A stretch of DNA of 64,000 bases from Malacoraja senta (taxonomy: Eukaryota), in assembly GCA_038087875.1 (NCBI GenBank), contig CM075990.1, forward strand, positions 12,092,001-12,156,000, in the 5' to 3' direction. Positions 5,259 through 48,500 of the stretch are shown here, in pieces. The notes under the pieces are model-generated. The model did not search any database and had not been told where the DNA came from. It saw only the letters and a list, made by a program, of their open reading frames with translations. Each line of letters starts with the position of its first letter. Position 1 is the stretch's first letter. A program made the position numbers and the translations under genes.

Positions 5259-5509
5259 AAACCAAGACGACATGAACAAATGAACTTGCTTATTCTTCCA
5301 ACAAGAATATCACAAGGAAAGTGAATTAACTGAACACTGATTTTTTATTTTTTATTTGACTTCAAGCAACAGATTCTTAGTGAGACGTGGCTAGACATTA
5401 TTATCTTCGCTGGAACATTGTGCTATGTAATTCAAGGACACTACGTGCTCAAACGAGGAAAACCTGATAACGGGACGAACTGCTGGGCTGAGAGTGAAAA
5501 ACATCACAT

Positions 5510-6078
5510 GGCTTATATTGTTTATAAAAAACTGAAAAAACTGAGAACTAATAATAATTAACAATTAACAATACTAATATAGAAATAGCAATTGAAATAG
5601 ATAAAAAATGTGCAGTCTGCTCTGTTTAGCAGATAACAGCAAGTGCTATGCAGCTCGAGAGTGGAGGGAGGGGGAGACCGGGTACCTGGCATAACTCCAG
5701 GAGCCAGACTCCCGTTAACCCTTCCAGCGAACAGCTCATTTTTAACAATATTAAAATCAATTTAAAATAGTTAAGAGATAATATACACTCGAGGTTGATA
5801 TGAAAAATATATACGGCTTATATAGTTTTACAAAATGCTGAGAATTAATCATAATTAATAATTAACAATACTAATATAGAAATAATATTTGAAACTGATA
5901 AAACTGTGGTGCCTGCGTCATAACGCAGACAGCAGTTATCACCTATGTTCACAGCTCGTGGAGAGGAGAAGAGATCAGGCACCTGGCACAATTCCAGGAA
6001 CCTGACTCCGGTTAATCCACTCAGTAAACCGCTCACTTTAACAATACTAAATTCATTTTAAAATAGTTAAGAGATAAA
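5510..6078 (+). repeat. Diverged tandem duplication of about 300 bp in the L1 inter-ORF spacer
   Basis: Units at about 5510-5780 and 5815-6078 share AATTAACAATACTAATATAGAAATA, CCTGGCA...TCCAGGA and TTTAAAATAGTTAAGAGATAA. Confidence 0.85.
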
Positions 6079-6468
6079 GAGTGAGTAGGATATGGAATCG
6101 AATACATTTGACATATATATAAATTGTAACTGGGTGAAATAGAACTGAATTGGAAACGGTAATGACCCCATAGATTTTGGGTAATAAATACAGCGGGGCT
6201 AACTTTATACCAACTACGCCGGAAGCGTTATGGATGTCGTACCCCACAGACGAGTGGGCCACTCACTACGGTGTTGAAATTTTAGACACCGTAAATTTAT
6301 TTGATTTATATATATATTTTTTTTTAATCACAATATGTCACATCTGTGTGTTTTTTCTTCAAGGACAATCGCGCAGGAGAACTACCAAGGAAGTCTATAA
6401 TAGAAATACTCCCAAAATAACCAGAGTCCGGAGGTATGAACGCACCACAATAATTAAGGTCATTAAAA

Positions 6469-10269: not shown

Positions 10270-10650
10270 GGTGCAATAGTAATTTAGAAAAACAAATAAA
10301 TAAATAAAAGGTATCTGGACCTGGTAATGGGAGGTAAAATAAAAATAGACTTGGTTGGTAGTTCCTTCTCTATGAAGTATGGTATAAGAGTTATAATAGA
10401 GCGATTGTTCCTTCTTTCTTTTTCTTTTTTTTCTAGGGTCTATTTTCTAACTTTACTTCCTTCTCTAACCTCTTTTCTAAGGGGCTTTCTTTTCCCAACA
10501 CTCTTTTGCACTTCACAACCTTTGTGCACTTTCTTCACTTCTCTTACTTCTTTCTTTTTCTTTCTTAAAGTTTAAAAAAGTGAAGCGGTACAAAAAATGT
10601 ATTAATATATACGTGTTGTACATTACTGTAATCTACCGTACTTCTAAAAA

Positions 10651-10684
<34 letters not shown>

Positions 10685-25300: not shown

Positions 25301-26749
25301 ACCGCCCCCAGTCCAGCAGCAGAATACCAACAAGTAGCCATTAGTTAAACTTGTGCCAGGGGGTCTGGGCCCGCTGAAGTTGCTTCAGATTGAAGTTGAT
25401 CTCCGCTGGCTCAGCAGTACAGGTCCTCCCCAGCCTACGATCATTCGACTTATGCCCAGCATCACATACGGAGGAGGGAGGGAGACTGGACAGATGGATT
25501 TGCGAGCTGCTGTTGGGGTTCGGGCATCTTGTGCCGTGGACAAACTCAGTTTGCAGCCACATTTCCAACTTGTGAACTGTCCGCTTGCAAATGGTTGTCA
25601 GGAACGGATCCCTACCATAACCTTGGGAGACCTGTATACCTATGAATTATACCCTCTGTGATTTATGATCAGAAGGCCAAGTGAATGAAGCCTGACGGTT
25701 CGGTTTCCTATGTGGTTATGTGTCTGTAAAAGATTGTCAGAAAATATCCTTTACAACTACATTCAATGTCATCTCTTTTAGCTTTCTCTGATTTGTAAGC
25801 AAGCTGGTAGAAGCGCTGCCTTGCGGCTCCAGCAGCCCAGGTTCAATCTTGACCTTTGGTGCTGTCTGTGTGGAGTTTGCATGTTTTCTTTGTGACTCCG
25901 AGGGATTCCTCCCGGTGCACCAGTTTCCTCCTCCATCCCAAAGATGTGGGTTGCTAAATGTGTGGTTTAGTTTAGAGATACAGCGAGGAAACAGGCCTTT
26001 CGGCCCACCGAGTCCACGCTGATCAGAAATCCACACACATTAACACTATCCTACACACACGAGGGACTATTTACATCTTTATACCAAGCCAATTAACCTA
26101 CAAACCTGGACGTCTTTGGAGTGTGGGAGGAAACCGAAGGTCTCGGAGGAAACCCACGCGGTCACGGGATGGGCGTACAAACTCTGTACAGACAGCACCC
26201 GTAGTCGGGATCGAACCCGGGTCTCTGGCGCTGAAAGCAGAAATTCTACCGCTGTGCCACCCTCCTGTGTACACACGCGTGTATAGGCGAGTCGCAGAAT
26301 CTAGTGGCAGCTGACGCATACGTGAAAGTAGGATTATGATTATGGAGAAAGCTTGTGGAGAATGTGAGATTGCGGAGAATTGATGGGCTAAATGGCAGCC
26401 ATCTCCTGTTGGAGAAGGGAATATGGGACCAATACTGGCCTCGGAGGTGTGCTAAGGTTTTGAGCAGTTTTTTAAATAAAAGAGTTGGTGATGTCCTTGG
26501 TTCAAGGCCATTGGAGGAATATCAGTTTTCATTGGGTACCAGTTGATGTAATTGGGAGAGAGAGCCTTCATATCATCCACTTCTCTAGATATATCTTACG
26601 GAAAGGAGATTTATCTCGATGACAGTTTTACAATATCATTGAACATCCATCATGGTGAGGGCAACTTACAGTACCAAACATTAGAAGAAAAATATGATGA
26701 ACTTGGCCTGGGTAGATGGGCTGAATGGCTCGTTTTGGCTGTGGGCTTC

Positions 26750-26939
26750 TCTTCTTCTTTTCGTGTCCATCTTGTTACAAATGTTGGCCTCGCTGTCATC
26801 GTCCGTCCTGAAATGGACGCAAGCTTCCGGCGACAATCAGTGGAAGCCATCACTTGTAATCGATGATGGTGGTAGCAGAATGAACTCAGGATACTTCCAG
26901 TATCCAGCCCCACGACGTGGACGCTTCCACTATGGGGAC
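26750..26939 (-). mobile_element. Short non-autonomous retroposon with a degenerate 5' HDV-like ribozyme and (AAG)n tail
   Basis: TSD GTGGGCTTC (26741-26749) / GTAGGCTTC (26940-26948); minus-strand 3' end TGGACACGAAAAGAAGAAGA. Confidence 0.78.
26873..26939 (-). ncRNA. HDV-like ribozyme fold, probably degenerate
   Basis: P1 GUCCCC/GGGGCU (1 mismatch), P2 UAGUGGAA/UUCUGCUA, P3 GCG/CGU, L3 UCCACGU, P1.1 GG, P4 AUACU/AGUAU. J4/2 (CCUGAGUUCA) is longer than canonical. Confidence 0.65.
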
Positions 26940-27059
26940 GTAGGCTTCACTGATGGGGTAAGAACATTTGTGCACATATGTGTGAGCCCAAGACAGTACT
27001 TGAATTGGTTTTGTTTAATATTATCACGTGGACTGAGGTACAGTGAAAGGCTTTTTTAT

Positions 27060-27060
<1 letters not shown>

Positions 27061-27133
<73 letters not shown>
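27061..27133. repeat. (AG)n microsatellite
   Basis: Uninterrupted AG run. Confidence 0.97.
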
Positions 27134-27135
<2 letters not shown>

Positions 27136-27609
27136 CTTGAAGATGACAACAAGCAAGGATGAAGAATCAAGGAAACATTAATTAAATTCGCCAGCACTGA
27201 TATGGTAGAGCAGCTGCCTCACAGTGCCAGAGACTTGGGTTTGATCCTGACCTTGGGTGCTGTCTGTGCGGAGTTTGCACGCTTTCTTTGTGACCTTGTT
27301 GGTTTCCTTTGGTGCTTTGGTTTGCCCCGACATCTCAAGGTCATGTGGGTTTGTTGGTCAAGTCAACTTTATTTGTCACATACAAGATGTGCAGTGAAAT
27401 GAAAGTGGCAATGCCTGTGGTTAATTACCCTCTGAAAATTGCCCCCGTGTGCAAGGAGAGGAAGTGGAATAACATAGAACTGGTGAGAACGGGTGATCAA
27501 TAGCCATTGTGGACATGGTGAGTTGAAGGGCCTGTTTCCAAGTATCCTCATAACTCCGTGGATTGTCACCTTGTCACCCTCTCATTCTCTGTGAAGCTTG
27601 TGTGGACCT

Positions 27610-27963
27610 GAGATCCGGAGAGCGATGCTGTCTGGAGCCATGCTCCTGGTAGGGCCACCCATGGAGAGAGGTCTCTGACAAAGAGCAATCCAACCAAGAC
27701 CTCAACGGTGGAACAGGCGGAGGACGATGGCTGACCTTAGTGGAGCGTCACGACGGCTGGGAAGGCTGCAGCAGAAAAGGGCCTCCAGTCGTCTTGGATT
27801 CCATGCCACTGGATCCTGACCCAGGTCTGTCAAGGGCCGTGGGGTGGCTGTCTGTGCACCATTTGCCCCATGTTAAGCAATGTCACGCACAGGTGTCCTC
27901 CACATAGGGAATAGCAAGCACCCTGGAGGCACCCATGGTCAGCCACGACCGAAGGGGGCCTAA
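27610..27963 (+). mobile_element. Probable RTE-clade (Rex3/Expander-like) derived non-autonomous element
   Basis: GGAGCCATGCTCCTGGTAGGGCCACCCATGG resembles RTE/Rex3 5' UTRs (recalled); no ORF. Confidence 0.4.
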
Positions 27964-28053
27964 GGTTGATAACAGTTTTGTCCTCAGCAGGAGAACATTC
28001 TGATTGAAGATTATTGGGCTGAATTGTTACTCCATTTCCCATCTGAAGAAGGC

Positions 28054-28441
28054 TCTCGACCCGAAACGTCACCCAATCCTTCTCTCCAGAGATGCTGCCT
28101 GTCCCGCTGAGTTACTCCAGCACTTTGTGTCCATCTTCGGTTTAAGCCAGCACCTCCAGTTCCTCCCTGCACAAGTTCTACCACTCTGTCGCACTGCCCT
28201 CATAAAATGAAGAAAGGATCTAAAATAAACACAATTCTCGAGGTAGCGCAGTCCACAAGTGGTCGTCGTGGAAAGAAATCCGATGACCTTGCGGGGAGCT
28301 GGTAAATTATCAATAACTGGGCAATAATACAAGGCTCCCCATCCCAGATTGGCACTAAGCTCAGGGATTCGCATGCTGTGGGGCTGGTTGTGGAACGCGG
28401 GTGTGTTGTCGTTGACTTTGTGAGCCACACTGCACTTGAAT
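28054..28441 (-). pseudogene. Inverted, degraded duplicate of the 3' part of CDH23 exon 6 plus downstream intron
   Basis: Minus strand encodes VNDNTPAFHNQPHSMRIPE and aligns with about 42199-42813. The donor is mutated (GAG|gtgagt to GAG|cttagt), and the copy lacks the CR1 insert found at about 42408-42650. Confidence 0.9.
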
Positions 28442-30436
28442 CAAACTCTGAACATTCCCTCTCAACAGATGCTGCAACAGTTGAGCTAGATCACTCGGGA
28501 ACAAAGTTACTGCATCTTGAATTGAAGATGTAATCGGCATGAAGATACATTTACTTTCCACTGAACCTGCATAATTAAACCCATAACCCATTAAATGTTT
28601 CCTGAACAGCTTGTGTCTTTGTTCCCGCATCACACTGATTGCAGCACGTTTAATTACTTTTCATCAGAAATGTATTAATGAATTGTTAGAAAGAGATATT
28701 TGCCATCAATTGAAGCTTTAGAGAAACATCGGGATTGTCAACCCTGTTTTGACCTATTGTTGACATTCCATCGTGTGACATAAAAATAGGAGCAGAATTA
28801 GACCATTCGGCCCATCAAGTCTACTCCGCCATTCAATCATGGCTGATCTATCTCTCCCTCCTAACCCCATTCTCCTGCCTTCTCCCCATAACCCCTGACA
28901 CCCACACTAATCAGGAATCTATCTATCTCTGCCATAAATATATCCACTAATTTTGCCTCCATGGCCTTCCTTGGCACAGATTATCCACCCTCTGACTAAA
29001 GAAATTCCTCCTCATCTCCTTCCAAAAAGAACGTCCTTTAATTCTGAGGCTATGACCTCTGGTCCTAGCCTCTTCCCCATTTGGTCACATGGCATTTAAT
29101 CACATGGTTCTTGGTCACATGATCACAGCATTGACAGTATCTGATTTTTGTTTTGTGTCGGTAAGACTCATAGAGTCTTACAGCATGGACACAGGCCCTT
29201 CGGCCCAACTTGCCCACACTTGGCCAACATGTCCCATATACACTAGTTCCTCCTCCCTGCATTTGGCCCATATATATCCCTCTAAACCTGGTCCATCCAT
29301 GTACATGTCTAAATGTTTCTTAAACATTGCAATAGTATCTGTCTCAACTACCTCCTCTGGCAGCTCGTTCCGTACACCTACCACCCTCTGCGTAAAAAAG
29401 TCACCCCTCAGATTCTCTCCCTCAACCCCCTTAAACCTATGTTAGTTGGGTCTCAATTCCCCTACTCTGGGCAAGAGACTCTGTGCGTCCACTCAGATCA
29501 CAGTGAGGAATGTGGAGGAGTCACTGTGGTGGATGTTTATGTTAAAATGTATTTTGTGTGTTTTGTTGCTTTTTATCGGTATGACCTGTATGGCAAATCG
29601 AATTCCTCGTATGTTAAAGTATGATTATGATGATGTTATCATCCTACCACAACCAGAGAGCAGTCCTCAACTACCATCTACCTCTATGGTGACCCTCGGA
29701 CTATCCTTGATCAGACTTTGCTGGCTTTACCTTGCACTGAAAGTTATTCCCTTATCATGTATCTATACACTGTAAATGGATCGATTGTAATCATGTATTT
29801 TCTTTCTGCTGACTGGTTAGCACGCAACAAAAGCACTTTCACTGTACCTTGGTACACATGACACTAAAGTAAACTGAGGTCAAGGGAGTAACGATAGGTT
29901 TGGGGCCCTTTAATTGTCTGGACACACATGGTTTGAACAAGTGGCAGTGAGAGTGACAACAAAACTTGGTGAGACACAAAAAACTCAGCGGGACAGGCAG
30001 CATCTCTGAAGAGAAGGAATGGGTGACGTTCCGGGTCGAGACCCTTCTACAGGCTGAGAAACGTCACCCATTCCTTCTCTCCAGAGACACTGCCTGTCCC
30101 CGCTGAGTTACTCCAACTTTTTGTGTCCATCTTCGGTTTAAACCAGCATCTGCAGTTCCTTCCTAAACAAAACCTAGTCGATCAATGCAGTGGTACATAA
30201 TTATAGCAACCATAGCTTCCGTTCCCATAGCGTCTATCAATTCACAGTTTCATCAAGCAGAAAATTGACGATAATCGATCGGAGACTTGATACAAGGGTC
30301 AAGGAGAATCTTAAAGGGGGAGGATGTGGAAAGAGTAAATCCCAAACCTTGGGGCCATTGTTGTCAGTAATGTGATTGGCAGCTTATCATATAGTGTGTC
30401 TATCATCGGTAGAAACCAGCATCTGCAGTTCCTTGA

Positions 30437-30780
30437 ACAACTCCACCTCCCATTCCGAATCCGACCTTTCTGTCCTGGGCCTCCTCCATGGCCAGAGTGA
30501 GCACCACCGGAAACAGGAGCAGCACCTCATATTCCGCTTGGGCAGTTTGCATCCCAGTGGCCTGAACATTGACATGTCCAATTTCCGGTAGCCCTTGCTG
30601 TCTCCTCCCCTTCTCAGCTCTCCCTCAGCCCTCTGGCTCCTCCTCTTACTTTCTTCTTCCTGCCCCCCCCCACCCCCCCCAACCACCTTGCATCAGTCTG
30701 AAGAAGGTTTCGGCCTGAAACGTTGCCTATTTCCTTCGCTCCATAGATGCTGCCGCACCCGCTGAGCAATTTTGTCTACC
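30437..30780 (+). mobile_element. Penelope-like element 3' fragment (end of GIY-YIG ORF + terminal repeat with hammerhead core)
   Basis: Encodes HSESDLSVLGLL...EQHLIFRLGSLHPSGLNIDMSNFR*, followed by CTGAAGA-AGGTTTCGGCCT-GAAACGTT. Related antisense fragments at about 32700-33345 and 56190-56467. Confidence 0.82.
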
Positions 30781-31074
30781 TTGATAAACTAATCTAATTT
30801 GACTGCACATGATCCATATCCCTTCGTTGGATATGCATATGTCTATCTAAAAGCCTTTTAAACATCACTATCCTATCTACCTGCACCCCCCCCCCCCCCC
30901 CAGCAACGTGTTCCAGGCAACCATTTTTATGTGTAAAAATATCACTCACCTCACACATCCCCTTTAAACCTTGCTCCTCTAACCTTAAAGCTACGCCCTC
31001 TGGTCTTTGTCATCCACCCTAGGGAAAAGGTTCAGACTCTCTAATCTGTGCCTCATCATTTTATACTGTAGACT

Positions 31075-31126
31075 GGGGCCAAGGAAAGAGCGTTCACGTC
31101 GCGGCCCTGTTTCCACCAATCTTTCC
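31075..31126 (+). ncRNA. Minimal HDV/CPEB3-like self-cleaving ribozyme (predicted)
   Basis: P1 GGGGCC/GGCCCU with a G1-U wobble, P2 GGAAAGA/UCUUUCC, P3 GCG/CGC, L3 UUCACGU, J1/4 GU, P4 replaced by UUCCA, J4/2 CCAA (catalytic C at 31116). Confidence 0.85.
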
Positions 31127-31243
31127 ACCACCACGCACAAGGAGCGACAAGACAGACACCATTGTACGCAGATGCCGAGACGTGTGTTCATCTCCGGCTG
31201 GACAACTTCTGATCTTGTGTGTGGACTCCATAAGAAGAAGAAG
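31075..31243 (+). mobile_element. Short non-autonomous retroposon with a 5' HDV-like ribozyme and (AAG)n tail
   Basis: Perfect TSD ACTGTAGACT at 31065-31074 and 31244-31253; 3' end TAAGAAGAAGAAG; first base is G1 of the ribozyme. Confidence 0.88.
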
Positions 31244-31273
31244 ACTGTAGACTTGACCATTAACAACTGCTTT

Positions 31274-31582
31274 ATTTAGTTTTTGTTTAGTTCAGAAATA
31301 CAGCATGGAAACAGACCCTTGGGCCCACCGAGTCCGCGCCTACCAGTGATCCCCGCACACTAACACTATCCTACACACTGGGGACAATTTTTTACATATC
31401 TATCATACCTATAAACCTGTACGTCTTTGGAGTGTGGGAGGAAACGGAGGTCCTGAAGAAAACCTAGGCAGGTCACAGGGAGAACGTACAAACTCCGTAC
31501 AGACAGCACCCGTGGTCAGGATCGAACCGGGGTCTCTGGCGCTGTAATGCAACAACACTACCTCTGTTCCACCGTGCCGCCC
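31274..31582 (-). mobile_element. tRNA-derived V-SINE (HE1-like)
   Basis: Family copy lying just downstream of the ribozyme retroposon. Confidence 0.78.
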
Positions 31583-32231
31583 AATATTATACAAGTCATC
31601 AAAAGAAATGAAAACAAATTCCATTCATTAATTCCCACCTGCCAGTACAGCACAGCGTCAGGAATGTGAAATGAAATCTTTGGAGGGAGTTGGAAAAAAA
31701 ACTACCCAATGCTTGGGAAAGCAGCATATTGTACGGCATTGCACTAGCAGCGGTCATGAACATGGTCTCCTGCAGCTTCTGACAGGTACATAGTAGTTAG
31801 CATGAATGAATGAGCAATACAGAGCACAGAACTGTGAGTGTGGATCGGGATCACCATTCATTTATCATCTCTGCGTCGAAATCCAGGGACTCCCAACCCA
31901 GTAACTCTGTGCGGATATGTTTGTCATTTGGACAGCAGTGGTTCAAGGGGGCAGCTCAGCACCACCTTCTCAAGGGCAATATTTGTCATCCTTCTGAGTT
32001 CCGCATCCTGTGAATTAATTAACAGAACGCTAAGGCTTTTGCGGTAAACTTAATTTCAGCGTTGTTTGATCCATCTGTCAAGATGGTGGCTGAGGTATCG
32101 AACCCTGCAAACATGTAAAGCGCAAAAATGTGAGCAAACTGCAATGAAAGGCAGCAAATAGGAAAGAATAGTGTAGGAAGGAACGGCAGATGATGCTTTA
32201 CACCTAAGATAGACACGAAATGGTGGAGTTA

Positions 32232-32687
32232 AGGGCCTGTCCCACTTGGCCTCATTTACGTGTCATATGTAAAATATGTCGATGCGTCGTGATGCGCGAC
32301 GTCGCGCGCAAATCACACGTCAGCACAGCTGTCTGGTGCGCGTGACATCATTAGAATACGCTGCGGCGCGCGGCGACGCACATTTACGGACTTCGACGCA
32401 CGGTGACGTAACCATGCGTCACCACGCGATACACGTGAGATGTCGGGACACCAGCGAGCGACGCCAATGCGTCAGCAATACGTCAAGCAGGTGGCACGCG
32501 AGGATTTCATTACACTATGAAATCCTGGAGCGCCTCGCGATACCGCGCGCCACCGCATGCGATTCCACGCCTCACCATGCGCAATGCGTGCGTCACCCAC
32601 GCTCACCCCACGCGTCACGACACGTCGACCTATTTGACATATGACGCGTAAATGAGGTGCAAATGACGGCCAAGTGGGACAGGCCCT
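32232..32687. mobile_element. PIF/Harbinger-type MITE (CpG-rich subfamily)
   Basis: TIRs AGGGCCTGTCCCACTTGGC...GCCAAGTGGGACAGGCCCT; TTA/TAA flanks; inserted in a Penelope-derived repeat. Confidence 0.85.
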
Positions 32688-34169
32688 TAATTTAGCGGGA
32701 CGGGCGGCATCTCTGGAGAGAAGGAATGGGTGACATTTTGGGTCGAGACCTTTCTTCAGACTCTAGGGAGAGGGAGACTAGAGGTATGGACGGGTGAGGT
32801 GTGAAAACAACAGATCAAAGTAGACGGTACACAAAAATGCTGGAGAAACTCAGCGGGTGCAGCAAGCATCTATGGAGCGAAGGAAATAGGTAACGTTTCG
32901 GGCCGAAACCCTTCTTCAGGATCAAAGTAGACAATGCTCAAGGAAAATGTAGATTGGTTCATTGCTAGCTGGGGGGAAGGTGACAACGAGGCATACAATC
33001 AGAAAAATTTAATCTGGAGGACAGTGAAAGTAGTCTGAGAAGTAGGGTCGGGGACATTTTTCATCATGCTAGAAAAACGCCCCGACCTACTTGATGCCAC
33101 GAGTACCTACGACTAGCATCACGACCTACCTACGACCTACCTACGACCTCGTGACGACCATGCTGCGAGTATGAGTCAAGGGCAAACTCGGCAGAGGTCG
33201 TGAATTAGGTCGTGAAAGTGGGACAGGCCCTTTACTTGAAGTTAGAGAAATCAATATTCTTACCACTGGATTGTAAGCTGCCCAAGAGAAATATGAGGTG
33301 CTGTTCCTCCAATTTGCGTTGGGCTCCACTCTGAGAGTGGAGGAGGAAATAGTGGAAATACGTCACGTGAGAGGAGTAGAATTAGGCCATTCAGCCCATG
33401 GAGTCCACTCCGCCATTCAATCATGGCTGATCTATCTCTCCCTCTCAACCCCATTCTCCTGCCTTCTCCCCATATCCCCTGACATCCGTACAGAGGAGAG
33501 TGGAGATAGGAAAGAAATATTGCATGAATGTTGCATCTTATCACTTTGTTTGGGAAGCGTTTTCATTTCAGACAATGAATTTATTTTAAGTCTACGGGAG
33601 ACTTCAGCACGGAGGCCAACAATGAAACCCCTAGTCTCAGATAGGATGGATGGTGTGTCAGCGTTAATGGAGGTAACGGCGTTAGCTGGGGAATTTACTG
33701 TCTTTCGGATGGTGTCACTGCATCTTTCGTCCCTATCTGATCATGCGTCTCTGATCAATGTTCAATCAGAAAGAAAAGCCTCTGAATAGGCAGCTCTCCC
33801 TCAGAGCTATGCTGGAGAGACAGCTTTAGTAATCTGTCAAATGCAAGCTGGTTCTGCAAGGTTGTCGTTGGAATTCCTCAAAGCACTTAAACGCCGATAG
33901 TTTTGTGTCAGATCTAATTCTGTATCCCTTTTCTGCCAACTCCATCAATATATCTTTTCATTCTATTCTCCCTGTGGTGTTTATTTAGCTTGCTCTTAAA
34001 CACAATTGTGTTCCTTTCCCTCAGTAATCCTTGTGGTAGTTGGTTCCACATTCTCTGAGTAAAGAAGTTTCCTGTTAATTCCTTTGGGATTTATGAATGT
34101 ACTTGAGGGCTTTAGTATTGAGCCAATTCAAGTCAAGTTTATTGTTATATGCACAAGTACCATAGGGTT

Positions 34170-34462
34170 TCACGGTGGTGCTGCGGTAGAGTTGCTGCTT
34201 TACAGCGCCAGAGACCCGGGTTCGATCCTGACTACGGGAGCTGTCTGTACAGAGTTTGTACGTTCTCCCCATGACCTGCGTGGGTTTTCCCCGGGAGCTC
34301 CAGTTTCCTCCCACACTAAAAAGACGTACAGGTTTGTAGGTTTGGCTTGGTATAATTGTAATTTGTCCCTAATGTGTGTAGTTTGTGTTAGTTTGCTTGT
34401 CGTTGGTCGGCACAGACTCAGTGGGCCGAAGGGCCTGTTTCCGCGCTGTATTTCTGCACTAA
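34170..34462 (+). mobile_element. tRNA-derived V-SINE (HE1-like)
   Basis: Near full-length family copy. Confidence 0.8.
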
Positions 34463-35312
34463 GATGCAGGTACAATGGAAATCCTGCCTGCAGCAACATC
34501 ACATTTGCGTGGGTCAGATAACACACAAAAACATATCTTATACATAACCTGCAAGACACTGAAGTAATAGATTGTACAGATACAAAGATGTTAGTGCAAA
34601 TAAGCTTTTGGCCTTCTCGCTCACCAAAAATCTATCTAACTCTCCTGAAGATTTTGCTTCCACTGAACTTTAAGGTTGAGAGTTCCAAAGACATTCAATT
34701 CCTGGGATGAGAGATGCCTTATTTGAAAGTGGGCAAAATTCTAGATTTTCACACACAAGTCTAACTAAACAGCACTAACAAAACTATGAACTACTATCTT
34801 TGGTTGCACTGAGAACTAGTTTTTTTTGCGCTTGAATTGGGGTTATTAATTTATTGATTTTTATTGATGATGTTATCAATGCACATTGTGTTTGCAGGCC
34901 TTTTATGCTGCTGCAAGTAAGAATTTCATTGTTCCGTTGCCAATGCAAATGGACACTGGACTCTTGACTTGCGAAGGGAAATGTCCACATTTGCCAGACT
35001 CTCCTGTATCTAGTGTGTCTCAGAGTAGTCCCCCCTCATTTTCTAAATGTCAGCAGATCCAGACCTAGTGTTGCCCGGGAGGCAACCGGTCCATTCCAGC
35101 TGTTGGTCTGGTGAAGTTTCCCTGAACTGCCTCCAAATGTTGCCTATTCCTTTTCTCCAGAGTTGCTGCCTGACCTGCTGTGTGTTGCTCCAACACCTTT
35201 GTGTCTATCACTGCAAGGTAGCCCCGTGTGTAGACATTGGGTGATGTTCCTCTACCTCATGCTTATGGCTGGGGCGACTGACTGACTCACTGTTCTCTGT
35301 ATTATTCCACAG

Positions 35313-35455
35313 GAACCTCCGTGACCAAACTGCGGGCCAGAGATCCAGACAACGACACGCTTGTGTTTGGCGTCGCGGGGGAAGAAGCCAGCAAATACTT
35401 TGCCGTGGAAAGCGAGACCGGTGTGGTATGGCTTCGCCAGCCTCTGGATAGAGAG
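35313..35455 (+). CDS. CDH23: Cadherin-23 coding exon (equivalent to human exon 4; EC1 domain)
   Basis: Flanked by ttccacAG and GTgctt; 143 nt. Translates (G)TSVTKLRARDPDNDTLVFGVAGEEASKYFAVESETGVVWLRQPLDRE, versus human GSSVTQLLAQDMDNDPLVFGVSGEEASRFFAVEPDTGVVWLRQPLDRE (recalled). Confidence 0.95.
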
Positions 35456-36081
35456 GTGCTTACAAACATAGAAAATAGGTGCAGGAGTAGGCCATTCGGC
35501 CCTTCGAGCCAGCACCGCCATTCAATATGATCACGGCTGATCATCCACAATCAGTACCCCGTTCCTGCTTTTCCCCCCATATCCCTTGATTCCGTCAGCC
35601 ATCATTACTATCATTGCTCCTGGCAAGACTGGAGGCACAGTACAGACCCCAAGACCTTGCATCTTCAAGCAGGTTTCATTGCTGGGATGACTGATTTATC
35701 TCAACTAAAACATCTATTAATTAAGCAATATTCGGCCCTTGAGAATAAATTACTGCCAGTTTGATTGTGGTGATTTGCGGCAAGTAGCACTCATCTATTC
35801 AATAGAAAAACAAATGTCTGCTAATTGGCAATAATCCACTGTAACCAAGTGCCTTGTCGTAATTCACTCTTAGAGTGGATTAACACGGGACGTGACTTTC
35901 CTCTGTACGTGTGCCCCGCATTCATAATCATCTCTAATGTCTTCCTAGGCCTGATTCTTGAAATGGCTTTTAAAAGTACAATGTAACTTTGACTTCCTAT
36001 ATCATATGATCACTTGCTCAAATGATTTACAGTGATCTGTCACTTGCTGTGGTGTTTTTATGTTAGACTTCCACATGATGT

Positions 36082-36200
36082 TCTCTCTGTCTCTCTCTCC
36101 CTCCCTCTCTCTCCCTCTCTCCCTCTCCCTCTCTCCCTCTCTCCCTCCCTCTCCCCCCTCTCTCTCCCCCCCTCTCTCCCTCTCTCTCTCTCCCCCCCCT
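36082..36200. repeat. CT-rich low-complexity tract
   Basis: Imperfect (CT)n/(CCT)n polypyrimidine run. Confidence 0.9.
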
Positions 36201-37702
36201 TCCATACACATTCCCAAATTACTAATGAATCGCCAAACAAATGTTACTTTGTTGGCCCGCTGATTTGTGTGGAATTGGGGGAAGGGGGGAGTGAAAATAC
36301 TGAAAGGAAATAAAATATTGAAGAGTTACTGATTGGAAATTAAGAAGGAAGGAAAATAAAGGAAAGTGTGGCTCGAAGTTTGCTTTAACTGGGAACTCTG
36401 CAGTGCTTTAAACTCCATAATCTGTTTGAGCAGTTAAGATGTGGTCAATTCCGACAGTCTCACGTTTCACATTAGGCCGATGAAAGGTCACCACCCGAAA
36501 TGTCACCTATTCCTTCTCTCCAGAGATGCTGCCTGATCCGCTGAGTTACTCCAGCATTTTGCGTCTACCTCCGGTGAAAACCAGCATCTGCAGTTCCTTC
36601 CTACACATGGTAGAGTAGGAATTGGTGGGCTAGAAATTCTCCGGGACCGTGACCCATCACGGGAACCCTTGTCCATCTGGAGTAAACACAACGGGACAAC
36701 CTAGAGGTCACTACTTCATAAAATCAGAATTCACTCGTTTTTGATTCAATGATGCTTTTCCCACAGTTCTTCCCAGGACTTTTATTCCTTGACCTGTTTA
36801 TCTCCAAACTGCTGAAAGGATGCCATTCTTACTCCTCTCTTCCCCCCCCCCCCCCCAATCCAATGAGCGATGCAGCTGACCTTCCCATCATCGCGGGTTC
36901 CTTTCAGCAAACTGTTCAATGTCAGTTTGTGGTATTATTTACATTTCCCAAATGCCTCCACGAAGTGGTTGCTCGCTCAGTTCAACGTGGTGGAACAGTT
37001 ACCGTTCATAAACGACAGGAGTAGAATAAGACCACTCGGCCCATTAAGTCCACTCCGCCATTCAATCATAGCTGATCTGTCTCTCCCTCCTAACCCCATT
37101 CTCCTGCCTTCTCCCCATAATCTTTGACACCCGCTACTGCCTTTCACACACTCTACGAGATGGTGTTTTGTTCTGGGGGGGGTTGGACACAGCAGTCCGA
37201 CCATCATGCACTATGTAACATTAGCTCACTAAATCATTTTTCTTTGGTCCCAAGGTGCTTTCTTAATTACACTTTCAGACTCAAATTTGAGCCTTGTAAC
37301 CTATATTCAAATTACAGGCAATGTGTTACCATTTTCCTCGGAGAATACGCTGTATTAATGAAGGATGCAGGGCATTAATGGCAATGGATTCCTATTCATT
37401 CTTAAAATAGTGCTATCTTGGGAGTCAAATTTTTAAATGAAGTAATTTTTTATTTTTAAGAAAAGGTTGATTTTTAAAATCAGAAGTCGAATTACTTTAA
37501 TGCCAAAATTCACTTTACTTTAAAAAAAATATTTTTCTTTTTTTTAAATAAGGGAGGCACAAGGAACTGCAAATGCTGGCTTACAAAAGTGGACAGTGCT
37601 GGAGTAACTCAGCAGGGTCAGGCAGTATCTCTAGAGAACAGAGTTAGGTGACGTTTCGGGTCGGGACCCTTCTTCAGAAGGAGTCTTCATTTTTATTTGA
37701 GT

Positions 37703-38372
37703 CATCCTCTTCTTGCACAGCCTGGTGTGCGCAGCCTAAGGGGCTGTCCCACTGCGGCGACCTAATTGGCGAGTTTGGAAGAGTTTGCCCTCGACTCATA
37801 CTCGCAGCATGGTCGACGTGAGGTCCTAGGAGGTCTTTGTAACTCTCCTTCATGCTCGAGAGTAGTCCCCGCGTACTCCAGGCCTCAGCTAGGTCGCCGT
37901 GTATTTTCCAACATGTTGAAAAATGGCCGCGAGTGAAAAAAGATCGCCAGGGAAAAAAATCGATGCTTTTTTTAACTTGTAGGTTTAGTCGAAGTAGGTC
38001 GTAGTAGGTCAGCATGTTAGTCGTAGGTAATCGGGGGTAGTCGAAGGTGATCAAAGGTAGTCGTAGATAGTCTTCAGCATAGTCGAAGGGAGGTCGAAGG
38101 AGATTGGAGGTCGTCTTCACTCTCCACTATTCGGTGTCCAATTTTCCTGAAGCTAGTCGTAGCTAGTCTTCTACATAGTCGAAGGAGGTCTTCAACATGA
38201 CACTTTTTCAAACTCTCCTAAACTCTTCTAAACTCGCCAATTAGGTCGCCGCAGTGGGACAGCCCCTTTAAGTTGTAGGTCAACCTGTTCTATTTGATCT
38301 TGTTCGTGCACGTCGGGTTAATTGCATTCGTCGAAACAGGGTGGACCACGTGAAGGTTGCAATCTCCCACCC
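37703..38372 (-). mobile_element. Short non-autonomous retroposon with a 5' HDV-like ribozyme, interrupted by a MITE
   Basis: Perfect TSD TTTTATTTGAGT at 37691-37702 and 38373-38384; minus-strand tail AAGAAGAGGATG; about 140 bp once the MITE at 37739-38267 is removed. Confidence 0.85.
37739..38267. mobile_element. PIF/Harbinger-type MITE nested in the ribozyme retroposon
   Basis: TIRs AGGGGCTGTCCCACTGCGGCGACCTAATTGGCGAG...CTCGCCAATTAGGTCGCCGCAGTGGGACAGCCCCT. Confidence 0.85.
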
Positions 38373-38373
38373 T
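38321..38373 (-). ncRNA. Minimal HDV/CPEB3-like self-cleaving ribozyme (predicted)
   Basis: Minus strand reads (A)GGGUGG GAG AUUGCA ACC UUCACGU GGU CCACCCU GU UUCGA CGAA UGCAAU. P1, P2 (AUUGCA/UGCAAU) and P3 (ACC/GGU) pair perfectly; J4/2 is CGAA. Confidence 0.85.
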
Positions 38374-39233
38374 TTTATTTGAGTGTACATTGTGATTTGC
38401 AATTTATTTTTTTTAAGTTCATTTTCCATACAAATTAGCCCACCTGCCTAATGATACAAGTCAGAGGCTGGAACAGTAAGCTGCAAGTCCCTGGATCATT
38501 CCATTATTATAAATCTGTAATTGTGTTGGGTATCCTGAAAGCACTCACTTTCTTCGAAAATAAAGAATTAGGCCGAAGCTATGGATTATAAATTGAAAGA
38601 AATTATGTGATGCATAATCAGTGGTTTAAATTGGAAACAAGGCAGGGCATAAATTGCAAGTCCTCTTTGGAAGCTTTTCTATCGACACAGAAAATTGCCA
38701 GAAGAAAGGCAATTATTGCTCCTAATGTGAGTGTCTCCATGTTTCAGCAATTCCTACCAGCTTAATGGCAGTATGCAAATCGAACAAATCTGCAGTGAAA
38801 ATATAACCTTCACAGTATTCAATGTTTTATAAGCTGGAGTGCCTTTTTTTATTGATGATGCACACTTAGTTTCGAGAGACATGCAAGGCTTTCTGTACTC
38901 TTGATTATAGCTTTTTTCTGTCAGGACATAGAATTACTATCCAAACTGTTTTATTTCACATTGTCACAAAGTCGTACAGCTCAGAAACGGGTCCCATCGC
39001 CCATCACGTCTGTAACAGCAATCAAAGACCTGTATTATTATTCTGCTTTTCCAGCACTCAGCCCCAGCCTATTATGCCATGGGCATTTAAAAAATGCCCA
39101 TGTAAACATTAAACGTGAGAATACCTGTTTCGTCCAACCCATCAGGTGTTCCTGATTTCCACCACCCTTGGGGTGAAAAAGTTCTTTCCCCAGATCTCCT
39201 CTCACTAGTTGTAAACCTCCTCTAAATCTAAAT

Positions 39234-45549: not shown

Positions 45550-48500
45550 TAACTCAATGGGACAGGCAGCATCTCTGGAGAGATGGAATGGGTGACATTT
45601 AGGGTTCGAGACCCTTTTTCTTCTTCAGAAGAATAAGTCTGAAGACGGGTCTCAACCCGACACGTCACCCATCCCTTCTCTCCAGAGATGCTGCCCGTCC
45701 CGCTGAGTTACTCCAGCTTTTTGTGTCCAACATCGACATGATGATTGGCGCTGCAAGTTTATCTCAGCAATTGGGAACTGAAGATCAGTTTAAAAACATC
45801 TTTCAGCCCCTTAACTAATGTGCAACAAAGAGTGCTGGGCACCGTGACAGACAGAACACATTCTGCAAATTGGAGAGTCATAAAAACTCTATTACCAGGA
45901 ATCAAATACCCCAGCAGAGAACAGGGATTCGCATAAAATGATACATGCAAATTTAATGAGGTTTGTCACGTTCAGCTTCTGGTGTCAGCTTCAGCCACGC
46001 CGACACTCAGCCATCCTTTAAGATGACGAAAGAATCATTACGGCTTCACAAAGAAAGTTTTGTGCAATTGGCAACCTGTTTTCATACTCCATTCATGAAT
46101 AAGCATTGTGATTTGTATTCCATAAATTAAGCTATAAAACCATTCCCAGACCATAAATAATTTACACAAACATGCCGCCCATGCTGGCGATCCAGATTTC
46201 TGACAAAAGATTTCCAATTCCTGTGCTAACAACGGCCTGTTTCCTTCATCATCATTGCTTTTTTTGCATATCCTTTATTCATTGTTCTCTATCTCTCTAC
46301 ATCATTATCTATATCTCTTGTTTCCCTTGTCCCGAACAAGTTTGAAGAAGGGTCTCGACCCAAAACGTCACCGATTCCTTCCAGGCACGGAAATCGCTAC
46401 CAAAGCATGGGGGGGGGGGGGGTGGAGGGACACAATTTCTTGGCAGCCACGCACGCGCATGCGCACACACGCGAGGCCCTGTGGACGGTAACATCGGGGG
46501 CTGACCTGGTTGGGGACCGACTCCAAACGCCAGCAACAGCAACTTCGTCCGCCCCGAATCGTGGGGCTTGAATCGGCCTGTTCACGGGGTCTTTCATCGG
46601 CCGGCGGGGGGCTTCAACATCGGGAGCTTCGATCGCAATTTGATTTTAAGCCGCGCCGGGGGCTAAAAGGCCACGAGAACGGGATGATTCAGCCCTTAGA
46701 AAACGTCTAATAAAACATGGGGGGGGGGTGGTTGTCCCCCATTTCTCAAAGCGGGGGGGACACGTGCCCCCCCCCCCCCCCCCGTCCCCCACAGGATTTC
46801 CGCCCCTGATTCCTTCTCCAGAGATGCTGCCTGTCCCGCTGAATTACTCCAACTTTTTGTGTCACTTCTATTTCCTGTATTTGTAACTGGCCGGCCGTCA
46901 GACAATAAAAAAAACCTGATTACCTGCTATTGCCCTTCCCGCTGAGAATCGTTAATATTTTCAGGTAGCTCAAATTATTTCGTGACTAACTGAAATATCA
47001 CCATCATTTTGAAAACAGGAAGATCCTAAAAAGAAAATGACTGATAAGCACACACCATGAAGGTTGAAGTGAGATCATTGGAAAGGGGAGTGATTATTGT
47101 ACAGCATCCAAATGCTTTTGTGTTGAAGAAGGAACTGCAGATGCTGGAAAATCGAAGGTACACAAAAATGCTGGAGAAACTCAGCGGGTGCAGCAGCATC
47201 TATGGAGCGAAGGAAATAGGCACGTTTCGGGCCGAAACCCGTCTTCAGACTGGGTTCTTCAGTCCAAATGCATTTTCAGTGCTTAGTTCAGTTTAGTTTA
47301 GAGATACAGCATGAAAACAGGCCCTTCAGCCCACCCAGTCCGCGCCAACCAGTGATCCCCGCACACTTACACTATCCCCTTACACACACACACACTAGGG
47401 ACAATTTACAATTTTACCAAGTATATTAACCTACAAACCTCTACGGGAAGAAAACAGAGATCCCGGAGAAAACCCACGCAGGTCACGGGGAGAACGTACA
47501 AACTCCGAACAGACAGCACCCGTAGTCAGGATAGAACCCAGGTCTCTGGTGCTGGAAGGCAGCAACTCTACCACTGGGCCACCGTGCCACACAGCAGCTG
47601 TGATAGATTCAACAAGGCTTGAACCAGGGAAGTTGCTTTTCCCTTGGCCTCTTGGAGTTCAGTTCCACACCCTCTCTGCATCTGCACCAACATTGCCCTC
47701 TGCTTGGATGTGTTAGCTGAGGTTAAATGCTTCATGTTGGGGGAAGGCTTCAATGTGAAAGGTGCAAGAATGCTTCCAACTGAAAGTACATTTGCTACCA
47801 TTGGTTTGAAAGATTTTTATCGTGAATCAGGAGCAATGTGTTGACTTAGATTGTACTCTGGCAGATTAGCTCCTGTGAGGCTGAACAATTCAGATGTTCC
47901 ACTTCCTGCCTCCTTGTTTATCTGTTGGCTCAGCTAATGTTTGCTCGGTGAATCAAGCTGGGGCAGGTCCATTATTTCAGATGATAGACTAGGGACCGGC
48001 CATAGCTGTCCGTAATGTTGTTTCACATTACACAGCGTTGCAGGAGGCATGGAAAACCAATACAGATTGCACAGGAATCACAGTGCCACAGTGCAGACTC
48101 TTATTGTGATTTAACTCAAACCCAAACAGTGAAACATTGAGACATGGAAACATACAATCATTAAAACATAGAAACATACAAAATAGGTGCAGGAGTTGGC
48201 CATTCGGCCCTTCGAGCCAGCACTGCCATTCAATATGATCATGGCTGATCATCCAGAATCACTTCCTTGTTCATCTAAGGCAAGGGTTCCCAGCCTGGGG
48301 TAATCTACCAGTGAAACCCTCTGAGACAGGATTCAGTTCGTGGGTGCGGTTTGTACCATCACAGCTCTGTCACCCATTCCTTCTCTCCAGAGATGCTGCC
48401 TGTCCCGCTGAGTTGCTCCAGCATTTTGTGTCTTGTCTTCGGTTTAAACCAGCATCTGCAGTTCCTTCCTCCACAGAAGAAGACGTCCAAAGTTGGTTGA

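What the first reader, a model, noticed from the sequence alone, without database searches (positions are those of the whole stretch)
26741..38384. Family of ribozyme-headed mini-retroposons: HDV/CPEB3-like ribozyme at the 5' end, (AAG)n tail, TSDs
Seen: three independent insertions (31075-31243 +, 37703-38372 -, 26750-26939 -) of about 140-190 bp. Each has a 9-12 bp TSD, an (AAG)n tail and no tRNA A/B boxes. Each begins at (two copies) or 1 nt after (one copy) G1 of an HDV-type nested double pseudoknot. Stems differ but all pair. P1: GGGGCC/GGCCCU, GGGUGG/CCACCC, GUCCCC/GGGGCU. P2: GGAAAGA/UCUUUCC, AUUGCA/UGCAAU, UAGUGGAA/UUCUGCUA. P3: GCG/CGC, ACC/GGU, GCG/CGU. L3 stays U(U/C)CACGU, and two copies share GU-UUC(C/G)A-C(C/G)AA around the catalytic C. 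Known: HDV-like ribozymes cut the 5' ends of R2, RTE and L1Tc/ingi retrotransposons out of co-transcripts. Inference: these are promoter-less SINE-like elements that excise their own 5' end from host Pol II transcripts and are mobilised by an Ingi/Vingi- or RTE-type LINE. I do not know of this being described in cartilaginous fish. Three copies in 12 kb suggests high genome-wide abundance.
Basis: partly seen in the sequence, partly recalled or inferred. Interest (0 to 1): 0.93.

Follow-up and report, generated by a model that had tools for sequence, protein, structure and literature searches.

The report
CPEB3-type ribozyme heads on retroposons
Thousands of short mobile DNA copies in this vertebrate genome, and the 3-kb jumping gene that most likely copies them, begin with a small RNA motif built like a self-cutting ribozyme so far reported only from a mammalian gene, which hints at where that mammalian ribozyme came from.

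Summary
All three insertions are real retroposon copies with target-site duplications (TSDs), AAG-rich tails and an HDV-type double-pseudoknot head. They belong to three high-copy families: A has 2,639 and C 1,620 head matches, and B has at least 1,617 first-look candidates.

- **5' ends:** of 45 copies with an exact TSD, 23 have the TSD abutting G1 exactly. Seven more are ambiguous but include G1.
- **Fold:** across seven families, 89% of helix cells pair (37-49% when partners are slid). Changes on both sides occur in 17 of 25 pairs, including pseudoknot P2.
- **Partner:** a 3.1-kb LINE with one 940-aa endonuclease plus reverse transcriptase (RT) ORF, RTE-like in layout. It has the same head, an (AAG)n tail and TSDs. 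I found no sign of an Ingi/Vingi partner.
- **New point:** the heads are specifically CPEB3-type. Rfam's mammalian CPEB3 model (cut-off 35 bits) scores the LINE head at 64 bits, and other families at 48-60. A 2021 paper says this ribozyme has no known non-mammalian relatives.

Ribozyme-processed LINEs and ribozyme-only non-autonomous elements are already known (R2 SIDEs, L1Tc/NARTc, RTE). This is therefore a new variant of a known kind. Self-cleavage and Pol II co-transcription remain inferred, because no RNA data were available.

The parts
31065..31074 (.). Copy A, 5' target-site duplication (10 bp)
   Evidence: Same 10 bases recur at 31244-31253 (locus L009)
31075..31126 (+). Copy A ribozyme head, 52 nt, P4-less (P1, P2, P3, L3, J4/2)
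   Evidence: Rfam CPEB3 model 33.3 bits, E 9.7e-6; helices pair; P1 and P3 recovered by MFE fold
31075..31243 (+). Copy A, whole family-A element (169 bp)
   Evidence: 40 of 40 scored genome matches at 93-95% identity over the full length; head 32-mer with up to 3 mismatches found 2,639 times, control 0
31232..31243 (+). Copy A (AAG)4 tail
   Evidence: Read; the same tail is seen in other copies
31244..31253 (.). Copy A, 3' target-site duplication
38373..38382 (.). Copy B, 5' target-site duplication (10 bp)
   Evidence: Repeated at 37691-37700
38321..38372 (-). Copy B ribozyme head, 52 nt, P4-less; lacks the family's G1
   Evidence: No Rfam hit. P1 and P3 pair in alignment A1; P2 was read directly
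37701..38372 (-). Copy B, whole family-B element, interrupted
   Evidence: Family copies are about 135 bp; 1,617 first-look candidates
37740..38268 (.). Nested inverted-repeat element (~38-bp terminal inverted repeats, apparent 3-bp duplication) inside copy B
   Evidence: Read; absent from the other 19 family-B loci
37691..37700 (.). Copy B, 3' target-site duplication
26940..26948 (.). Copy C, 5' target-site duplication (9 bp, one mismatch to its partner)
   Evidence: Partner at 26740-26748
26873..26939 (-). Copy C ribozyme head, 67 nt, with a P4 hairpin
   Evidence: Rfam CPEB3 model 27.4 bits, E 8.4e-4; a cleaner family copy, L040, scores 35.1 bits
26749..26939 (-). Copy C, whole family-C element (~190 bp) with AAG-rich tail at 26749-26760
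   Evidence: 40 of 40 scored matches at 92-94% identity; head 32-mer with up to 3 mismatches found 1,620 times, control 0
26740..26748 (.). Copy C, 3' target-site duplication

Best explanation
These are copies of three families of short non-autonomous retroposons. Each has only two functional modules: a 52-67-nt CPEB3/HDV-type self-cleaving ribozyme as its first bases, and an (AAG)n tail.

Proposed cycle:
1. A source copy with no promoter of its own is transcribed as part of a longer host or read-through transcript (inferred).
2. The head folds into the nested double pseudoknot and cuts 5' of G1, so the element RNA starts exactly at G1 (inferred from the fold and the 5' ends).
3. The endonuclease-reverse transcriptase of a 3.1-kb RTE-like LINE in the same genome, which carries the same head and the same tail, primes on the AAG tail at a nicked target. 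It copies the RNA to its 5' end (inferred; TSDs and tails are shown).
4. The new copy therefore starts at G1 and is flanked by 7-15-bp TSDs (shown).
For: **Copy number**
- The core 13-mer occurs 1,175 times, against 1 for the reversed control.
- The family A head 32-mer matches 2,639 times and the family C one 1,620 times, with up to 3 mismatches and 0 in controls.

**5' ends**
- Exact TSDs of 7 or more bases were sought ending between -5 and +6 of G1. They were found in 45 of 70 non-duplicate loci, after dropping 8 duplicate loci. The 70 include 4 loci with no tail at the expected length, which were not searched.
- Of those 45, 23 abut G1, 7 run 1-3 nt into the head (ambiguous, G1 included), 2 start after G1, and 13 have 1-5 intervening nt.
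- Allowing one mismatch in the TSD, 25 of 56 end at 0 and 16 at +/-1.
- Upstream sequence diverges directly 5' of G1 in 7 of 8 LINE copies with an intact head.

**Fold**
- The alignment holds 23 heads from 7 families. 89.0% of 464 cells pair, against 37-49% when partners are slid.
- 17 of 25 pairs change on both sides. The covariation score is 0.403 against 0.159 in shuffles (0 of 500 reach it). Pseudoknot P2 is 96% paired.

**Family match**
- The Rfam CPEB3 model scores 64.2 and 63.8 bits on LINE heads, 59.7, 51.4 and 48.2 on three further families, and 35.1 on a clean family C copy.
- Genome-wide, 39 of 59 scored candidates exceed the cut-off, and 0 of 14 control genomes ring.

**Partner LINE**
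- It has the head, a 940-aa ORF with PF03372 and PF00078 domains, an (AAG)4 tail and a 12-bp TSD.
- 209 3' ends and 17 heads were counted. Five head-tail pairs lie 3.10-3.14 kb apart.

**No Pol III-type head**.

**Known precedent:** ribozyme cleavage at the 5' junction of R2, R4, L1Tc and RTE, and ribozyme-only SIDEs (passages in PMC3774820, PMC6765202).
Against: - No cleavage assay and no RNA data were available, so cutting at G1 and co-transcription are unproven.
- The window copies themselves score below Rfam's cut-off (33.3, 27.4, none).
- MFE energies are not better than shuffles.
- The bodies of A, B and C share nothing with this LINE except the ribozyme core and the tail. Only C shares a 15-nt 3' end. 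The link to this particular LINE rests on the shared tail and head type.
- Copies within a family are related by descent, so the covariation counts effectively rest on about 7 lineages. The structure was also partly read from these same sequences.
- 13 of 45 TSDs do not abut G1. Many of these are TSDs with a point mismatch, but not all.
- One family-E copy has an A-rich tail rather than an AAG tail.
Confidence: 0.8

Rival explanations
1. The head does not self-cleave in vivo. The 5' end at G1 is a transcription start from an unrecognised promoter. The conserved fold serves as a recognition or stability element for the reverse transcriptase, as 5' RNA does for R2 protein.
For: There are no RNA or cleavage data. 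Families A and B lack P4, and their window copies score below Rfam's cut-off or not at all. MFE z-scores are weak.
Against: The complete catalytic architecture is kept across 7 families through compensatory changes: P1 with a G-U closing pair, P2 pseudoknot, P3, L3, and a C-N-A-A J4/2. Heads score 48-64 bits on a model of a proven ribozyme. No Pol III-type head was found. P4-less HDV-like ribozymes are described as natural 'minimal' forms (abstract of PMC10879173 in the listing; their activity is recalled, not read).
Confidence: 0.1
2. The three families are ribozyme-processed, but a LINE other than the 3.1-kb one found here mobilises them. This could be another RTE subfamily or an unrelated LINE that accepts AAG tails.
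For: The bodies and the last 40 nt of A and B do not match this LINE. Only 17 LINE heads and 209 tails were counted, against thousands of SINE-like copies. The genome holds further ribozyme-headed families D, E and F and an L1-like LINE with a poly(A) tail in the window.
Against: The LINE found has the same tail repeat, the same head type and the same TSD size range. It shares a 15-nt 3' end with family C. Many exact 32-mers and an open 940-aa ORF indicate recent activity. The L1-like LINE ends in poly(A), not AAG.
Confidence: 0.15
3. The resemblance to an HDV/CPEB3 ribozyme is a chance or compositional match in ordinary repeats.
For: The L3 heptamer is not enriched in the window. The window copies fall below the gathering score.
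Against: Rfam E-values reach 5.6e-16. 0 of 14 control genomes ring. Covariation exceeds 500 of 500 shuffles and all slid controls. The fold always starts at the first base of the repeat unit.
Confidence: 0.01

Closest known systems
R2 SIDEs (short internally deleted elements) of Drosophila
   Same: They are non-autonomous elements made only of a 5' HDV-like ribozyme plus a 3' end used by the LINE's machinery. The ribozyme cuts the element out of a co-transcript (passage in PMC3774820).
   Different: SIDEs are site-specific in rDNA, low in copy number and derived from R2 by internal deletion. Here the families are dispersed with TSDs and number thousands of copies. Their bodies are unrelated to the LINE found, and the partner is RTE-like.
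HDV-like ribozymes at the 5' end of RTE, R4, baggins and L1Tc retrotransposons
   Same: The ribozyme starts at the first base of the element, and cleavage defines the 5' junction (passages in PMC3774820 and PMC6765202; Ruminski 2011 is recalled, as the paper was not held).
   Different: Described mainly in insects, nematodes and trypanosomes. I could not check which vertebrate cases, if any, the primary papers list. Here the heads are CPEB3-type in sequence, and high-copy SINE-like families share them.
NARTc / L1Tc of Trypanosoma cruzi
   Same: A non-autonomous partner shares the LINE's first 77 nt, which hold an HDV-like ribozyme (abstract of PMC3383444).
   Different: That 77-nt piece is also an internal promoter, and NARTc shares sequence with L1Tc. 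Here no promoter was detected, and only the fold, not the helix sequences, is shared between families.
Mammalian CPEB3 intronic ribozyme (Rfam RF00622)
   Same: The architecture is the same and much of the sequence too. The LINE head matches the model consensus exactly over an 18-nt stretch spanning P2-P3-L3-P3', over the 8 nt after P1 and over the J4/2 region (alignment). Family C and a metagenome copy have the same P2 helix as the consensus. Family E has the same P4 stem.
   Different: CPEB3's is a single-copy, conserved intronic element. It is stated not to occur outside mammals, or outside that gene in mammals (passages in PMC8233481). Here it is transposon-borne, in thousands of copies, with variable P1, P2 and P4, and with P4-less forms.
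Perere-3 (RTE clade) with 5' twister-variant ribozymes in Schistosoma mansoni
   Same: An RTE-type LINE with a single endonuclease plus RT ORF, non-specific insertion with TSDs, and a 5' self-cleaving ribozyme next to the TSD (passages in PMC8501958).
   Different: The ribozyme class differs (twister rather than HDV-like), and the host is a flatworm.
Minimal (P4-less) HDV-like and theta ribozymes
   Same: Families A and B replace P4 with a 5-nt linker, giving heads of 52-53 nt.
   Different: Those minimal forms were reported from gut phages and microbiomes (abstract of PMC10879173 in the listing). Here they sit on eukaryotic retroposons.

Membership tests
HDV-like self-cleaving ribozyme (CPEB3 type) | Nested double pseudoknot: P1, P2 (crossing P1), P3, and P4 where present, kept by compensatory change | tested here: met
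   89.0% of 464 cells are paired. Changes on both sides occur in 4 of 7 P1 pairs, 4 of 7 P2, 2 of 3 P3 and 7 of 8 P4. Slid controls give 37-49%. 0 of 500 shuffles reach the covariation score.
HDV-like self-cleaving ribozyme (CPEB3 type) | G1 in a G-U wobble closing P1, with the cleavage site 5' of G1 | tested here: met
   column pair 1/37 is G-U in 8 of 9 cells with letters. Families A and C, whose P1 is one pair shorter, have their G-U at pair 2/36 (5 cells). The repeat unit starts at this G in 7 of 7 families.
HDV-like self-cleaving ribozyme (CPEB3 type) | Catalytic cytosine in J4/2, just before the 3' strand of P2 | tested here: met
   A C-N-A-A motif sits directly before P2' in the commonest form of all 7 families, though some degenerate copies, including window copy C, depart from it. 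It aligns to the model's J4/2. Its catalytic role is inferred.
HDV-like self-cleaving ribozyme (CPEB3 type) | P1.1 mini-helix between L3 and the bases after P1 | tested here: inconclusive
   Read. One C-G pair is possible in all families. The second position is U/U in most families but C/G in family C, where both sides change. This could not be counted with the tool because the register differs in A1.
HDV-like self-cleaving ribozyme (CPEB3 type) | Score at or above Rfam RF00622's gathering cut-off (35 bits) | tested here: met
   Met for the LINE (64.2, 63.8), D (59.7), E (51.4), F (48.2) and a clean C copy (35.1). Not met for window copies A (33.3) and C (27.4) or for family B, which gets no hit.
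HDV-like self-cleaving ribozyme (CPEB3 type) | Mg2+-dependent self-scission | not testable with these tools
No RNA run was on record.
Mammalian CPEB3 ribozyme as an orthologous locus | Single conserved copy in an intron of the CPEB3 gene | tested here: not met
   Thousands of dispersed, TSD-flanked copies. It resembles the CPEB3 ribozyme but is not the CPEB3 locus.
RTE-clade non-LTR retrotransposon (the partner LINE) | About 3.2 kb, with a single ORF holding an N-terminal AP-type endonuclease and an RT, and no separate ORF1 | tested here: met
   3,137 bp. One 940-aa frame with PF03372 (E 6.6e-8) and PF00078 (E 2e-32). The first Met lies about 29 nt after the ribozyme. The layout matches that given for Perere-3 in PMC8501958.
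RTE-clade non-LTR retrotransposon (the partner LINE) | Short 3' UTR ending in a simple-repeat tail, non-specific insertion with TSDs, frequent 5' truncation | tested here: met
   (AAG)4 tail and a 12-bp TSD. 209 tails against 17 heads.
RTE-clade non-LTR retrotransposon (the partner LINE) | RT groups with named RTE elements in a phylogeny | not testable with these tools
   No Repbase or Dfam references are held. Homologues (1,759 at E<=1e-3 of 8,000 scored) carry only generic names and lie on contigs of about 3.0-3.4 kb.
Classical SINE | 5' head derived from tRNA, 7SL or 5S RNA with an internal Pol III promoter | tested here: not met
   ARAGORN finds 0 genes in 26000-39000. No tRNA, 7SL or 5S match at E<=10 in that stretch, or at E<=0.05 in the window.
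SIDE-type element (internal deletion derivative of its LINE) | The 5' and 3' parts are identical to the partner LINE's ends | tested here: not met
   Against the LINE found, only the ribozyme core (15-18 nt) and the tail match. Family C also shares a 15-nt 3' end. Other LINE subfamilies were not surveyed.

The most novel reading that the evidence does not exclude
The mammalian CPEB3 ribozyme is not a mammalian invention. It would be the domesticated 5' head of an RTE-type retroposon from the lineage still active in this genome. On this reading, the transposon-borne heads, and similar single copies in unidentified eukaryotic metagenome contigs scoring 66.5 and 52.1 bits, are the missing non-mammalian relatives and outgroups. 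They share with the CPEB3 consensus not only the fold but also helix sequences that catalysis does not dictate: the P2 of family C and of contig L107, the P4 stem of family E, and P3 in six of seven families.
Probability: 0.4. Interest if true: 0.85.

Novelty: new variant of a known kind. Interest (0 to 1): 0.7.

Why it matters
- **Scale.** Ribozyme-defined 5' ends are used here by high-copy, promoter-less SINE-like families in a vertebrate-type genome, not only by a few LINEs. At least seven families share only a fold and a tail.
- **A natural variant library.** There are several thousand CPEB3/HDV-type variants, including 52-nt P4-less forms, for structure-function work.
[quoted passage not shown] Sequences here score up to 64 bits on that family's model, and they point to a retroposon origin that can be checked.
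- **Annotation.** These families lack Pol III heads and would be missed or misfiled by SINE finders.

Tried and rejected
- **Weak first tests.** The L3 motif count is not above chance. The Rfam gathering scan of the window gives 0 hits. MFE folding z-scores are not significant.
- **RNA evidence.** No RNA holder was listed. Four contig runs laid on 26500-38500 were swamped by repeats. They listed no molecule starts or ends at the three copies and no empty-site joint. Short contigs of two coded organisms cover parts of copies A and C at about 90% identity, which I do not use as evidence.
- **Relatives of the LINE in prokaryote-labelled assemblies.** Four loci were found, all 3' halves without 5' ends, so they say nothing about heads.
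- **SINE bodies against the LINE.** No shared body was found, so simple internal-deletion origin from this LINE is rejected.
- **Ingi/Vingi partner.** No evidence; the partner has the RTE layout.
- **tRNA-derived SINE.** Rejected.
- **Earlier findings of this scan.** Nothing was found.
- **Primary papers.** Ruminski 2011 and Webb 2009 are not held. Vertebrate RTE ribozymes could therefore be in print without my seeing them.
- **Searches behind 'not found in print'.**
- **Taxon.** Not resolved.
- **Family B copy count by a head pattern.** Not obtained. Only the first-look figure stands.

Full report
**What is in the window**

All three insertions are as described.
- Copy A (31075-31243, +) is 169 bp. 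It is flanked by a perfect 10-bp duplication and ends in (AAG)4.
- Copy B (38372-37701, -) has a 10-bp duplication and a degenerate AAG-rich tail. A ~530-bp inverted-repeat element, absent from the other family-B loci, interrupts it. It starts one base after the family's G1.
- Copy C (26939-26749, -) has a 9-bp duplication with one mismatch.
One correction: P1 of copy C has a U-C mismatch where the family has G-C.

Taken alone, the window copies are weak evidence.
- The L3 heptamer is not enriched: 8 found, 9.3 expected.
- Nothing reaches an Rfam gathering score.
- In a permissive scan, the only ribozyme family to hit is the mammalian CPEB3 ribozyme (cut-off 35 bits). It scores 33.3 bits on A and 27.4 on C, and does not hit B.
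- MFE energies are no better than shuffles.

**Family level**

The window lies in a 1.94-Gb assembly that could be searched but not downloaded.
- The 13-base P3-L3-P3' core of copy A occurs 1,175 times, against 1 for the reversed control.
- Each copy recruits 40 of 40 scored full-length matches at 92-97% identity. First-look candidates number 1,516 (A), 1,937 (C) and 1,617 (B).
- A 32-base head segment with up to 3 mismatches occurs 2,639 times for A and 1,620 times for C, with 0 in controls. The matching count for B was not obtained.
- The families are about 170, 135 and 190 bp long. They share no body sequence with each other.

**5' ends**

I fixed G1 from the fold, as the base of P1. I then looked for exact duplications of at least 7 bases ending anywhere from 5 nt before G1 to 6 nt after it.
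- I started from 78 loci and dropped 8 duplicate loci. Four more had no tail at the expected length and were not searched. Another 21 had no exact TSD. That left 45 with a TSD.
- In 23 of the 45, the TSD abuts G1 exactly. In 7 it runs 1-3 nt into the G-rich head, so the start is ambiguous but includes G1.
- In 2, the element starts after G1. In 13, 1-5 nt intervene, and many of these are TSDs with a point mismatch.
- Allowing one mismatch, 25 of 56 end at 0 and 16 at +/-1.
- The base before G1, which is the last base of the TSD, is T in 38 of 62 copies. This points to a target preference.

**The fold**

A genome-wide search with Rfam's CPEB3 model gave far stronger hits than the window copies.
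- Of 59 candidates scored, 51 had E<=1e-3 and 39 were over the cut-off. The best was 64.2 bits. None of 14 control genomes rang.
- Fetching 26 of these hits revealed a LINE head and three more short-element families, D, E and F.
- I aligned 23 heads from the seven families and counted the pairs of P1, P2 (written as a pseudoknot), P3 and P4.
- 89.0% of 464 cells pair, against 37-49% when the 3' partners are slid by 1-3 columns.
- 17 of 25 pairs change on both sides. The covariation score is 0.403 against 0.159 in shuffles, and 0 of 500 shuffles reach it. P2 is 96% paired, with 4 of 7 pairs changed on both sides.
- The closing pair of P1 is G-U.
- A C-N-A-A motif precedes the 3' strand of P2 in the commonest form of every family and aligns to the model's J4/2; a few degenerate copies, window copy C among them, depart from it.
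- Family C also changes both sides of the second P1.1 position (read).

Caveats on the fold:
- Copies within a family are not independent, so the evidence rests on about seven lineages.
- MAFFT misplaced the 3' part of family B, so its P2 was read by eye.

**The autonomous partner**

Eleven to twelve of the fetched hits are the 5' end of one LINE.
- One full copy (L080 plus L085) is 3,137 bp. It starts at the ribozyme, and its first in-frame Met lies about 29 nt after the ribozyme.
- It has a single 940-aa frame with an AP-type endonuclease (PF03372) and a reverse transcriptase (PF00078).
- It has a short 3' UTR, an (AAG)4 tail and a 12-bp TSD.
- With up to 2 mismatches there are 17 heads and 209 3' ends. 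Five head-tail pairs lie 3.10-3.14 kb apart on one strand. This is typical 5' truncation, and the many exact matches indicate recent activity.
- Its protein has relatives at 48-64% identity in lancelet, sea urchin, psyllids, moths, a lizard and a notothenioid fish, mostly on contigs of 3.0-3.4 kb.
- The layout and tail are those of the RTE clade, as described for Perere-3 (PMC8501958). A phylogeny against named RTEs could not be run.
- The link to A, B and C rests on the shared tail repeat, head type and TSD size, plus a 15-nt shared 3' end with family C. The bodies do not match, so another subfamily could be the true partner.
- The window's own LINE (4263-10682) is L1-like with a poly(A) tail, and is not a candidate.

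**Mechanism**

- *Shown:* TSD-flanked insertions, tails, a conserved and covarying fold starting at base 1, a LINE with the same ends, and no Pol III-type head.
- *Inferred from the known R2, R4, L1Tc and RTE cases* (PMC3774820, PMC6765202): transcription inside longer transcripts, self-cleavage 5' of G1, and target-primed reverse transcription from the AAG tail by the LINE's enzyme.
- *Not explained:* how the RNA's 3' end is defined.

**Comparison with what is known**

- Ribozyme-headed LINEs are established.
- So are non-autonomous elements that keep only the ribozyme and a 3' end. These are the R2 SIDEs (PMC3774820) and NARTc (PMC3383444).
- This is therefore a variant, not a new kind.
- The differences are the scale, the number of families sharing only a fold, the P4-less 52-nt forms on eukaryotic elements, and the CPEB3-type sequence.

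**The CPEB3 resemblance**

In cmscan's alignments, the LINE head matches the CPEB3 consensus exactly in three places:
- an 18-nt run covering the end of P2, P3, L3 and P3';
- the 8 nt following P1;
- the J4/2 region.

Family C and a metagenome contig (L107, 66.5 bits) carry the same P2 helix as the consensus. Family E carries the same P4 stem. These helix sequences are not known to be required for catalysis (my knowledge, not tested).

Bendixsen et al. [quoted passage not shown] My searches found no paper that links the CPEB3 ribozyme to a retroposon or reports CPEB3-type heads in non-mammals. However, the primary surveys (Webb 2009, Ruminski 2011) were not held, and I saw no supplements.

Common descent, meaning exaptation of a retroposon head in the mammalian stem, is my most novel reading, at about 0.4. 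Convergence on a favoured sequence is the alternative.

**Limits**

- No RNA or cleavage data were available.
- The taxon is unresolved.
- The whole genome was not available for a full census.

Noticed in passing
window 4263-10682: An apparently intact L1-like LINE. It has a 331-aa ORF1 frame with no Pfam hit, a 1,271-aa ORF2 with endonuclease and RT domains, and a poly(A) tail at about 10648-10682. The best named relatives are teleost fishes at 35-43% identity.
   Followed up: partly
window 37740-38268: A ~530-bp element with ~38-bp terminal inverted repeats and an apparent 3-bp duplication, nested inside copy B. It is MITE-like and its class was not determined.
   Followed up: no
families A, B, C and the LINE (loci L001-L102): The base just before G1, which is the last base of the TSD, is T in 38 of 62 non-duplicate copies. 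This suggests a target or second-strand nick preference.
   Followed up: partly
G000:C8:937653-937813 and G000:C4:35489706-35489789 (L092): Short tandem arrays of a 26-nt piece of the LINE's ribozyme head lie directly upstream of a LINE copy. They are unexplained and could be template-switch products.
   Followed up: no
L094 (family E copy): This ribozyme-headed short element ends in an A-rich run rather than (AAG)n, followed by an 8-bp TSD. Some families may use another partner.
   Followed up: no
L106 and L109 (metagenome contigs): A CPEB3-type ribozyme (52.1 bits) sits a few hundred bases upstream of an exon encoding a fibrinogen-like domain in an unidentified eukaryote. No RT lies within 3.6 kb.
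   Followed up: partly
L113 (contig in a bacterial-labelled assembly): A relative of the LINE, 51% identical, ends in a (GAT)n-like tail. The tail is preceded by the same short motif (GGACACGA) that precedes the AAG tail of family C (the LINE's own 3' end has AGACACGA).
   Followed up: no
window 29993-30097 (-) and 45551-45710 (both strands): Long hairpins give sub-threshold hits to miRNA precursor models: mir-1266 at 36.9 bits (cut-off 70) and MIR2118 at 45.1 bits (cut-off 85). They are probably inverted-repeat transposon remnants.
   Followed up: no
window 27059-27100: A (CT)n microsatellite of about 42 bp lies about 120 bp outside the 5' end of copy C.
   Followed up: no
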